Source: Escherichia coli O157:H7
GTDB lineage: Bacteria; Pseudomonadota; Gammaproteobacteria; Enterobacterales; Enterobacteriaceae
Assembly (NCBI RefSeq): GCF_013167455.1
Contig: NZ_CP038328.1
Strand: one strand, 5' to 3'
DNA length: 64,000 nt
Shown: piece by piece, positions 1 to 3,000 of the stretch
Numbering within the stretch: the stretch's first letter is position 1
How the letters are laid out: every line of letters begins with the position of its first letter
Position numbers: made by a program

Positions 1-3000
1 CAGATTATCGCGTCAGCTGGCATCAGAAGGTAGCTAACGGACAGACTATTGAGCCTTACGCTCACGTTCAGGACAACGGCTATCGTGATAAAGGCACTCA
101 GGGCGCGCAGCTTGGCGGTGTCGGGGTCCGCTGGAATATCTGGACCGGCGAGACGCACTACGACGCCTGGCCGCACAAAGTCAGTCTCGGCGTCGAGTAT
201 CAACATACCTTTAAGGCGATTAATCAACGTAACGGAGAGCGCAACAACGCGTTTCTCACCATTGGAGTGCACTGGTAAATGCGTAAGTTCATTTTCGTAT
301 TGCTGACACTGCTTTTGGTCAGCCCTTTTTCCTTTGCGATGAAAGGTATTATCTGGCAACCACAAAACCGTGATAGTCAGGTTACCGATACCCAGTGGCA
401 GGGGCTGATGAGTCAGTTACGTTTGCAAGGCTTCGATACCCTGGTTTTGCAATGGACCCGTTACGGCGATGCATTCACCCAGCCAGAACAGCGCGCGTTA
501 TTGTTTAAGCGGGCCGCAGCTGCGCAACAGGCTGGCCTGAAGCTGATTGTCGGGCTGAACGCCGATCCGGAATTTTTTATGCACCAGAAACAGTCATCCG
601 CGGCGCTGGAAAGCTATCTTAATCGCCTGCTGGCTGCCGATCTCCAGCAAGCCAGATTATGGAGTGCCGTACCTGGCGTAACGCCGGATGGCTGGTACTT
701 CAGCGCTGAAATTGACGACCTGAACTGGCGCAGCGAAGCCGCCCGTCAGCCTTTGCTAACATGGTTAAACAACGCGCAGCGGCTGATTAGCGATGTTTCA
801 GCAAAACCGGTTTATATCAGTAGTTTTTTCGCCGGAAACATGTCGCCAGATGGCTATCGCCAACTGCTGGAACACGTTAAAGCAACCGGCGTTAATGTCT
901 GGGTACAGGATGGCAGCGGCGTGGATAAACTTACCGCTGAACAGCGTGAACGTTATCTACAGGCCAGCGCCGATTGCCAAAGCTCCGCCCCAGCAAGCGG
1001 CATTGTTTATGAACTGTTTGTCGCCGGCAAAGGCAAAACCTTTACAGCGAAACCGAAACCGGACGCAGAAATTGCCTCGCTGTTAGCGAAACGTTCCTCT
1101 TGCGGTAAAGACACTCTCTATTTCTCTCTGCGCTATTTGCCCGTCGCGCACGGCATTCTCGAGTATTAAATCTCCTCCAGGTAAGTCGGGTACGACCTGG
1201 CTTACCTCTTTCGCTCTCGTCAGAATTCCATCAAGATTAATTGCTAAAAAGCGTGCTAAAGAAAGAAGATCGTTATCGGCGAACGGGCCGATCACTCATG
1301 CAGGAAGCATAGATCCTTTGAGCGGAGTTTCTGATATCTGAGGAGTGCGAAATGCAATTGAGCAGCAGTGAACCTTGCGTGGTGATCCTGACCGAAAAAG
1401 AGGTAGAGGTAAGCGTCAATAACCATGCTACGTTTACCCTTCCGAAAAACTACCTGGCCGCCTTCGCGTGCAACAATAACGTCATTGAACTCTCAACGTT
1501 AAATCACGTATTAATCACCCACATCAACCGTAACATCATCAACGATTATCTGTTGTTTTTAAATAAGAACTTAACCTGTGTAAAGCCCTGGTCGCGGCTG
1601 GCTACCCCGGTTATCGCTTGTCATAGCCGTACACCGGAAGTGTTCCGGCTAGCCGCCAACCACAGCAAGCAGCAACCCAGCAAACCCTGCGAAGCGGAGT
1701 TGACGCGCGCATTGCTTTTTACCGTATTGTCTAACTTTCTTGAGCAATCGCGGTTTATTGCCCTACTGATGTATATCTTACGCAGCAGCGTCCGCGACAG
1801 CGTCTGCCGCATTATTCAAAGCGATATTCAGCATTACTGGAATCTGCGAATTGTCGCCAGTTCGCTATGTTTAAGCCCCAGCCTGCTCAAAAAGAAATTA
1901 AAAAACGAAAATACCAGCTATAGCCAGATTGTCACAGAGTGTCGTATGCGTTACGCCGTACAGATGTTATTGATGGATAACAAAAATATCACTCAGGTGG
2001 CGCAATTATGTGGCTATAGCAGCACGTCGTACTTTATCTCTGTTTTTAAGGCGTTTTACGGCCTGACACCGTTGAATTATCTCGCCAAACAGCGACAAAA
2101 AGTGATGTGGTGAAGGGCAAAGCGGAAACGGATAAGACGGGCATAAATAAAGAAGAAATGGCGCGCCCTGCAGGATTCGAACCTGCGGCCCACGACTTAG
2201 AAGGTCGTTGCTCTATCCAACTGAGCTAAGGGCGCGTTGATACCGCAATGCGGTGTAATCGCGTGAATTATACGGTCAACCCTTGCTGAGTCAATGGCTT
2301 TTGATCTGGTTGCTGAACAAGTGAACGACCGCGTCTGATTTTCTGATTTATTTCGCTATAGCGGCAAACAAACGCACACCGCTGCGCGTCTGAATCAAGA
2401 AAACCCGTATTTTCATGTATCAAAGTACAATTTACCGCCCTAACGGAAAATTGTCCGCTCCTATGAGACTGGTAACTATGAAACCAACGTCGGTGATCAT
2501 TATGGATACTCATCCTATCATCAGAATGTCTATTGAAGTTCTGTTGCAAAAAAACAGTGAATTGCAGATTGTCCTGAAAACGGATGATTACCGCATAACC
2601 ATCGATTATCTCCGAACCCGTCCTGTTGATTTAATCATTATGGATATAGACTTGCCCGGAACAGACGGTTTTACCTTCCTGAAAAGGATCAAACAAATCC
2701 AGAGCACAGTGAAAGTGTTATTTTTATCATCGAAATCAGAATGCTTTTATGCTGGCAGAGCGATACAAGCTGGTGCTAACGGTTTTGTCAGTAAATGCAA
2801 TGATCAGAATGATATTTTTCATGCCGTTCAGATGATCCTCTCCGGATACACGTTTTTTCCCAGCGAAACGCTTAACTATATAAAAAGCAATAAATGTAGT
2901 ACGAATAGTTCAACGGTCACTGTGCTATCTAATCGTGAAGTGACCATATTACGTTATCTAGTTAGCGGATTATCTAATAAAGAAATTGCCGATAAGTTAT

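What the first reader, a model, noticed from the sequence alone, without database searches (positions are those of the whole stretch)
2114..2414. Unoccupied argU integration site: no DLP12-type prophage and no ompT, envY retained
The envY stop (2113) lies 45 bp from the 3' end of argU (2159), the side where prophages integrate, and fimZ follows on the other side. The whole DLP12 prophage region found in K-12, including the ompT protease gene, is absent. This is either a never-occupied or precisely deleted site. Lack of OmpT also has practical consequences for protein stability in this strain.
Basis: partly seen in the sequence, partly recalled or inferred. Interest (0 to 1): 0.5.

Follow-up and report, generated by a model that had tools for sequence, protein, structure and literature searches.

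The report
Empty argU phage attachment site, O157:H7
This is the ordinary, unoccupied form of the tRNA-Arg (argU) phage attachment site in E. coli O157:H7, a state shared by about half of all complete E. coli genomes, and O157:H7 genomes nearly identical to the window still carry the OmpT protease gene elsewhere on the chromosome.

Summary
envY ends at 2113 and argU (tRNA-Arg UCU, minus strand) occupies 2159-2235. The gap between them is 45 bp, and fimZ follows on the other side. The window holds no integrase gene, no ompT and no DLP12 DNA.

Comparison with K-12 defines a 47-bp att core at window 2157-2203, made of 2 nt plus the 3' 45 nt of argU. The core is single-copy here. In K-12 two copies bracket a 21,302-bp insert running from intD to ompT, with envY just outside it. 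The window is therefore an exact attB.

This state is not unusual. 2537 of 5426 complete E. coli genomes have the same uninterrupted junction, and the 47-bp repeat and the patchy distribution of DLP12 are already published.

The inference that the strain lacks OmpT is not supported. The window is E. coli O157:H7. Strain Z1830, 99.996% identical to the window over 50 kb, has an intact ompT about 0.94 Mb away, next to minCDE at the end of another lambdoid prophage. 287 genomes share that context.

Sequence cannot separate "never occupied" from "precisely excised". E. albertii also has envY–argU–fimZ without a prophage, which favours an ancestral empty state. Low interest; already known.

The parts
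1352..2113 (+). envY (AraC-family regulator). It is chromosomal and lies outside the prophage boundary.
   Evidence: ORF. Annotated envY in identical O157:H7 DNA. AraC-type matches in NCBIfam. In K-12 it sits directly outside the attR core.
2114..2156 (.). Bacterial arm of attB on the envY side (43 bp, unstructured). It differs from K-12 by two SNPs at 2149 and 2151.
   Evidence: Collinear with the K-12 attR flank. No hairpin: fold z = -0.02. No terminator-like site.
2157..2203 (.). 47-bp att core: 2 nt beyond the tRNA 3' end plus the 3' 45 nt of argU, reaching into the anticodon loop. Single copy here, which makes the site attB.
   Evidence: Breakpoints found by walking in from both flanks against K-12. 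Three-way attB/attL/attR alignment. One copy in the window at up to 3 mismatches. Two exact copies in K-12, 21,302 bp apart. Occupied genomes break at exactly these positions.
2159..2235 (-). argU, intact tRNA-Arg (UCU)
   Evidence: ARAGORN; Rfam RF00005, 72.1 bits.
2267..2294 (-). Promoter-like site upstream of argU (TTGACT-16-TATAAT, 11 of 12)
   Evidence: Consensus scan only. Function is inferred, not shown.
2478..3110 (+). fimZ, the neighbour on the 5' side of argU, followed by the sfm fimbrial operon
   Evidence: RefSeq annotation of identical O157:H7 DNA; ORF.

Best explanation
Window 2114-2414 is the unoccupied bacterial attachment site (attB) for DLP12-type lambdoid phages in E. coli O157:H7. 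A tyrosine integrase of the IntD type recombines a phage attP with a 47-bp core that covers the 3' half of argU. Integration regenerates an intact tRNA at attL and leaves a partial tRNA copy at attR, next to envY. In K-12 the element between these two cores is 21.3 kb and carries ompT as cargo at its right end. In O157:H7 nothing sits between them. The most likely history is that this lineage keeps the ancestral empty state. O157:H7 genomes nearly identical to the window are not OmpT-negative: their ompT lies in the homologous right-arm module of a different lambdoid prophage or remnant next to minCDE. Shown: the boundaries, the single core, the absence of phage DNA, the population frequency, and ompT elsewhere in near-identical genomes. 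Inferred: the integrase mechanism, from the established biology of lambdoid tRNA-site integration, and the 'never occupied' history.
For: attB = B + core + B', K-12 attR = B + core + P', K-12 attL = P + core + B', and all three 47-bp cores are identical. In K-12, intD lies next to argU and ompT lies just inside attR. The core is single-copy and the window has no DLP12, intD or ompT sequence. 2502 to 2537 of 5426 complete genomes have the same contiguous junction, and all interrupted genomes break at query positions that correspond to window 2157 and 2203/2206. The 47-bp argU repeat at the DLP12 ends and its patchy distribution are published (PMC6379469). That the absence of DLP12/ompT is widespread is also published (PMC5723341). 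ompT is present in O157:H7 Z1830 next to minCDE, with 96-97% homology to the K-12 DLP12 right arm (ompT, tail-fibre-assembly remnant, methyltransferase). The same context occurs in 287 genomes, including EDL933 and EC4115. E. albertii has envY-like, argU and fimZ in the same order with one core and no integrase, so prophage-free synteny also occurs in a related species, consistent with an ancestral empty state. Where a DLP12-type element has decayed in place (B2 type strain), it leaves an integrase fragment and a degenerate attR. No such debris exists here.
Against: Precise integrase-mediated excision, or recombination between the two 47-bp cores, would give exactly the same sequence, so 'never occupied' is a parsimony argument only. 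The complete genome that the window came from was not available. ompT presence is shown for near-identical O157:H7 genomes, not for the source strain itself. E. albertii has an extra AT-rich 160-aa ORF between envY and argU, so its site is not identical to this one.
Confidence: 0.9

Rival explanations
1. The O157:H7 lineage once carried a DLP12-type prophage at argU and lost it. Loss was by precise Int/Xis excision or by homologous recombination between the 47-bp attL and attR cores, either of which restores a scarless attB.
For: The product would be indistinguishable from what is seen. DLP12 excision in K-12 is reported in the literature (Hha-induced; cited in PMC4632033). O157:H7 carries a DLP12-like right-arm module with ompT in another prophage, which shows contact with this phage family.
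Against: There is no scar, and none would be expected, so nothing positively supports it. The empty state is found in 47% of genomes, and E. albertii has the same envY–argU–fimZ order without a prophage, which makes an ancestral empty state more parsimonious. In-place decay leaves remnants in other lineages. No argU core lies near the O157 ompT.
Confidence: 0.1
2. The junction is an assembly misjoin or a collapsed repeat, and DLP12 with ompT really lies here.
For: None found.
Against: The identical junction occurs in 2537 independently finished complete genomes. These include many long-read O157:H7 assemblies that are 100% identical over 25 kb. In those genomes ompT maps about 0.94 Mb away.
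Confidence: 0.01
3. The strain is truly OmpT-deficient, like BL21 or Shigella.
For: There is no ompT in the 64-kb window. 2332 of 5426 E. coli genomes have no ompT match.
Against: The window is O157:H7. Every O157:H7 genome examined has ompT. 287 genomes share the O157 min-proximal ompT context, against 319 genomes at 99% identity or better to the window.
Confidence: 0.05

Closest known systems
DLP12 attB at argU (Lindsey et al. 1989, recalled and cited within PMC6379469; 47-bp repeat described in PMC6379469)
   Same: Same tRNA gene, same 47-bp core at the 3' end, and same flanks (envY on one side, fimZ on the other) as the K-12 attL and attR arms.
   Different: Here the site is unoccupied. 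There are two SNPs in the envY-side arm (2149, 2151).
DLP12/ompT-negative argU locus of Shigella and EIEC (Nakata et al. 1993, as reviewed in PMC5723341)
   Same: The whole DLP12 region, including ompT, is absent from the argU locus. The same open question applies: never hosted or excised.
   Different: Shigella and EIEC lack OmpT altogether, as a pathoadaptive state. O157:H7 has ompT at a second locus. No Shigella sequence was examined here.
Decayed DLP12 remnant of phylogroup B2 (E. coli ATCC 11775)
   Same: Same chromosomal neighbourhood (nfrA-ybcH ... argU) and same att core at argU.
   Different: B2 keeps about 3.5 kb of remnant (integrase fragment, tail-fibre fragment, methyltransferase, ompT) and a degenerate attR. 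It has lost most of envY and all of fimZ and the sfm operon. The window has none of this debris and keeps envY and fimZ.

Membership tests
Unoccupied tRNA-gene attB of a lambdoid (tyrosine-integrase) phage | Intact tRNA gene whose 3' part is the recombination core | tested here: met
   argU is intact. The core 2157-2203 covers the 3' 45 nt of the tRNA plus 2 nt.
Unoccupied tRNA-gene attB of a lambdoid (tyrosine-integrase) phage | The core is single-copy, with no partial tRNA duplicate nearby | tested here: met
   One match in 64 kb at up to 3 mismatches. No relevant repeats in 1300-3200.
Unoccupied tRNA-gene attB of a lambdoid (tyrosine-integrase) phage | The same core brackets a prophage, with an integrase gene next to the tRNA, in lysogenic relatives | tested here: met
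   K-12 has exact cores at L007 995-1041 and 22297-22343, and intD abuts argU.
Unoccupied tRNA-gene attB of a lambdoid (tyrosine-integrase) phage | No integrase or phage genes between the bacterial flanks | tested here: met
   tblastn and blastn give no hits. Only 45 bp separate envY from argU.
Unoccupied tRNA-gene attB of a lambdoid (tyrosine-integrase) phage | The site is competent for integration by a DLP12-type integrase | not testable with these tools
   This needs an integration assay.
DLP12 cryptic prophage | intD and lambdoid genes (nmpC, essD/rrrD, appY, ompT) between attL and attR at argU | tested here: not met
   None are present in the window.
OmpT-deficient E. coli/Shigella background | ompT is absent from the whole genome | tested here: not met
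   Tested on near-identical complete O157:H7 genomes, not on the source genome itself. ompT is present in Z1830, PNUSAE145590, TR01, and EDL933 and EC4115.

The most novel reading that the evidence does not exclude
The O157:H7 ancestor carried a DLP12-type prophage at argU. Its ompT-bearing right arm was moved by recombination between resident lambdoid prophages to the min-proximal prophage, and the argU element then excised precisely. On this reading the clean attB and the relocated ompT are two traces of one event.
Probability: 0.07. Interest if true: 0.25.

Novelty: already known. Interest (0 to 1): 0.07.

Why it matters
It matters little beyond annotation. It fixes the exact DLP12 att core (47 bp, window 2157-2203) and shows that envY lies outside the element. 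It also corrects a tempting but wrong inference: absence of ompT from its K-12 position does not make a strain OmpT-negative, because ompT is prophage cargo that sits at different loci in different lineages. That point is relevant to anyone predicting protease phenotype or antimicrobial-peptide resistance from synteny with K-12.

Tried and rejected
1. I looked for att remnants or a second core in the 45-bp spacer and across the window. None were found.
2. I looked for a terminator or other structure in the spacer. There is none (fold z = -0.02).
3. I searched for an argU core next to the O157 ompT, which would indicate translocation of an argU-derived element. None was found at up to 12 mismatches.
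4. The first genome-contig scan, with an envY-side flank plus core pattern, returned nothing. The second, with the whole tRNA plus 2 nt, returned 6 loci. Three of them (in Segatella, Streptomyces and Collinsella assemblies) are 88-100% identical to E. coli DNA around argU, so I took them as likely contaminating Escherichia DNA and ignored them.
5. Literature searches for the O157 locus tag Z1931 found nothing. An O157 prophage survey, PMC5359411, had no whole-word mention of argU or ompT. PMC2947995 was irrelevant.
6. I could not name the min-proximal O157 prophage in Sakai or EDL933 nomenclature from tool results, so I left it unnamed.

Full report
**What is there.**
The first 3.2 kb of the window read nfrA (3' end), ybcH (279-1169), envY (1352-2113, +), tRNA-Arg UCU = argU (2159-2235, -) and fimZ (annotated start 2478; longest ORF from 2415), followed by the sfm fimbrial operon. 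A strong promoter-like site (TTGACT-16-TATAAT, 11 of 12) lies upstream of argU at 2294-2267 on the minus strand. The 45-bp spacer has no terminator-like hairpin and folds no better than shuffled sequence.

**Identity of the window.**
The 1.4 kb around the site is 100% identical to E. coli O157:H7 genomes. Window 1-25000 is 100% identical to many O157:H7 chromosomes. Window 1-50000 differs from strain Z1830 (NZ_CP062713.1) at 2 positions, which is 99.996% identity.

**Exact anatomy of the site.**
I walked inward from both flanks against a K-12 chromosome (L007).
- The envY side stays collinear with K-12 up to window 2203, with two SNPs at 2149 and 2151.
- The fimZ side stays collinear down to window 2157.
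- The overlap, 2157-2203, is a 47-bp core: two bases beyond the tRNA 3' end plus the 3' 45 nt of argU, reaching into the anticodon loop.

In K-12 this core occurs twice as exact copies, at L007 995-1041 and 22297-22343, which are 21,302 bp apart. The copy next to envY is a partial tRNA (attR), with ompT and appY just inside it. The other copy is part of the intact argU (attL), with intD abutting it.

The three-way alignment is textbook: attB = B-core-B', attR = B-core-P', attL = P-core-B'. In the window the core is single-copy even at 3 mismatches. Neither OmpT, IntD nor any of the 21.3-kb DLP12 interior has a match anywhere in the 64 kb. So the site is an exact, scarless attB, and envY lies outside the element. 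This agrees with the published description of a 47-bp argU-derived repeat at the far end of DLP12 (PMC6379469).

**How unusual it is.**
It is not unusual.
- A 161-nt query centred on the core is uninterrupted in 2537 of 5426 complete E. coli genomes. The 1.4-kb query gives 2502.
- The remaining genomes break precisely at the core boundaries (query positions corresponding to window 2157 and 2203/2206), as expected for occupied sites.
- This also disposes of the misjoin possibility.
- The literature already notes that DLP12 is present in only part of the species (74% of 638 genomes by a border-based criterion, PMC6379469). It also notes that loss or absence of DLP12/ompT is widespread, and that for Shigella/EIEC it is unresolved whether the prophage was never hosted or was excised (PMC5723341).

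**The OmpT inference.**
ompT matches 3094 of 5426 genomes. With 2537 empty junctions, at least 205 genomes must have both an empty argU site and ompT.

O157:H7 is such a case.
- In Z1830, ompT (954 bp, annotated intact) lies at 3166782-3167735. Its neighbours are minCDE, an autotransporter remnant and an HTH gene on one side. On the other side are an alpha/beta hydrolase, ISEc8, a tail-fibre-assembly remnant, a SAM methyltransferase and then the tail genes of a lambdoid prophage. This is about 0.94 Mb from the argU site at 4106255.
- The same arrangement is seen in PNUSAE145590 and TR01, and in 287 genomes overall, including EDL933 and EC4115. For comparison, 319 genomes are at least 99% identical to the window over 25 kb.
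- The O157 module is 96-97% identical to the right arm of K-12 DLP12 over ompT, the tail-fibre-assembly remnant and the methyltransferase. ompT is therefore cargo of a related lambdoid right arm sitting at another locus.
- No argU core lies near it.

The statement that the strain lacks OmpT is therefore not supported. From my own recollection (not tool-checked), OmpT of EHEC O157:H7 has been studied experimentally for cleavage of the antimicrobial peptide LL-37.

**Never occupied or excised?**
Sequence cannot separate these, because Int/Xis excision or recombination between the identical 47-bp cores restores exactly this attB. Two comparisons bear on it.

First, E. albertii NBRC 107761 (L011) has nfrA-ybcH-envY-like, then argU, fimZ and sfm in the same order. 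It has one core, no integrase and no DLP12 homology. It does have an extra AT-rich 160-aa ORF of unknown family between envY and argU. Prophage-free synteny is thus also found in a related species, which is consistent with an ancestral empty state.

Second, where a DLP12-type element has decayed in place, debris remains. The B2 type strain ATCC 11775 has ybcH, a truncated envY 3' end, a degenerate attR core, ompT, a methyltransferase, a tail-fibre fragment, an integrase fragment and argU, and it lacks fimZ and the sfm operon. The O157:H7 site has no such debris.

I therefore favour retention of the ancestral empty state (about 0.9 together with the attB reading). Precise excision stays as a minor rival (about 0.1).

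**Mechanism.**
Shown: the boundaries and the duplication of the core in lysogens. Inferred from the established biology of lambdoid tyrosine integrases at tRNA genes: an IntD-type integrase exchanges strands within the 47-bp identity segment between attP and the 3' half of argU. The phage copy rebuilds the tRNA 3' end at attL, so the tRNA stays functional. The displaced bacterial 3' half is left at attR beside envY.

**Verdict.**
The feature is ordinary and already described, so interest is low.

Noticed in passing
window 26410-27771 (-): allB (allantoinase) has an in-frame TAG at codon 296 of 453. RefSeq marks the same gene as 'internal stop' in O157:H7 Z1830.
   Followed up: partly
L009 6001-6954 (NZ_CP033605.1, O157:H7 strain TR01): This O157:H7 genome carries the K-12 ompT allele (100% identical, WP_001201845.1) in the O157 min-proximal context. 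Other O157:H7 genomes have a 98.5-98.6% allele there. This could be gene conversion or an assembly or polishing artefact.
   Followed up: no
L010 3439-7079 (E. coli ATCC 11775, phylogroup B2): A decayed DLP12 remnant of about 3.5 kb retains ompT. It has a degenerate attR core next to a truncated envY 3' end and an integrase fragment next to argU. fimZ and the sfm operon are absent, and folD follows argU directly.
   Followed up: partly
L011 5597-6079 (E. albertii NBRC 107761): An AT-rich 160-aa ORF with no NCBIfam match lies between the envY homologue and argU. There is no integrase and no second att core.
   Followed up: partly
L005 31670-34407 and hits H174-H179: The O157 ompT + alpha/beta-hydrolase module is about 99% identical to a module in other strains (O91 RM7190, OkiPb01698). 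In two of them it lies at chromosome coordinates of about 0.6 Mb (coordinates vary in the others), which may be the argU neighbourhood. That would fit movement of this cargo module between lambdoid prophages.
   Followed up: no
window 38173-42369 (-) and about 57700-64000 (-): An RHS core protein gene, and the 3' part of a giant SiiEA/BapA-like adhesin pseudogene with its type I secretion genes. These are named from the RefSeq annotation of Z1830; identity to the window was checked only for 1-50000, so the adhesin region at 57.7-64 kb was not aligned.
   Followed up: no
L012, L014, L016: Short contigs filed under Segatella copri, Streptomyces triticisoli and Collinsella assemblies are 88-100% identical to E. 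coli DNA around argU and intD, and so are probably contaminating Escherichia DNA in those public assemblies.
   Followed up: partly
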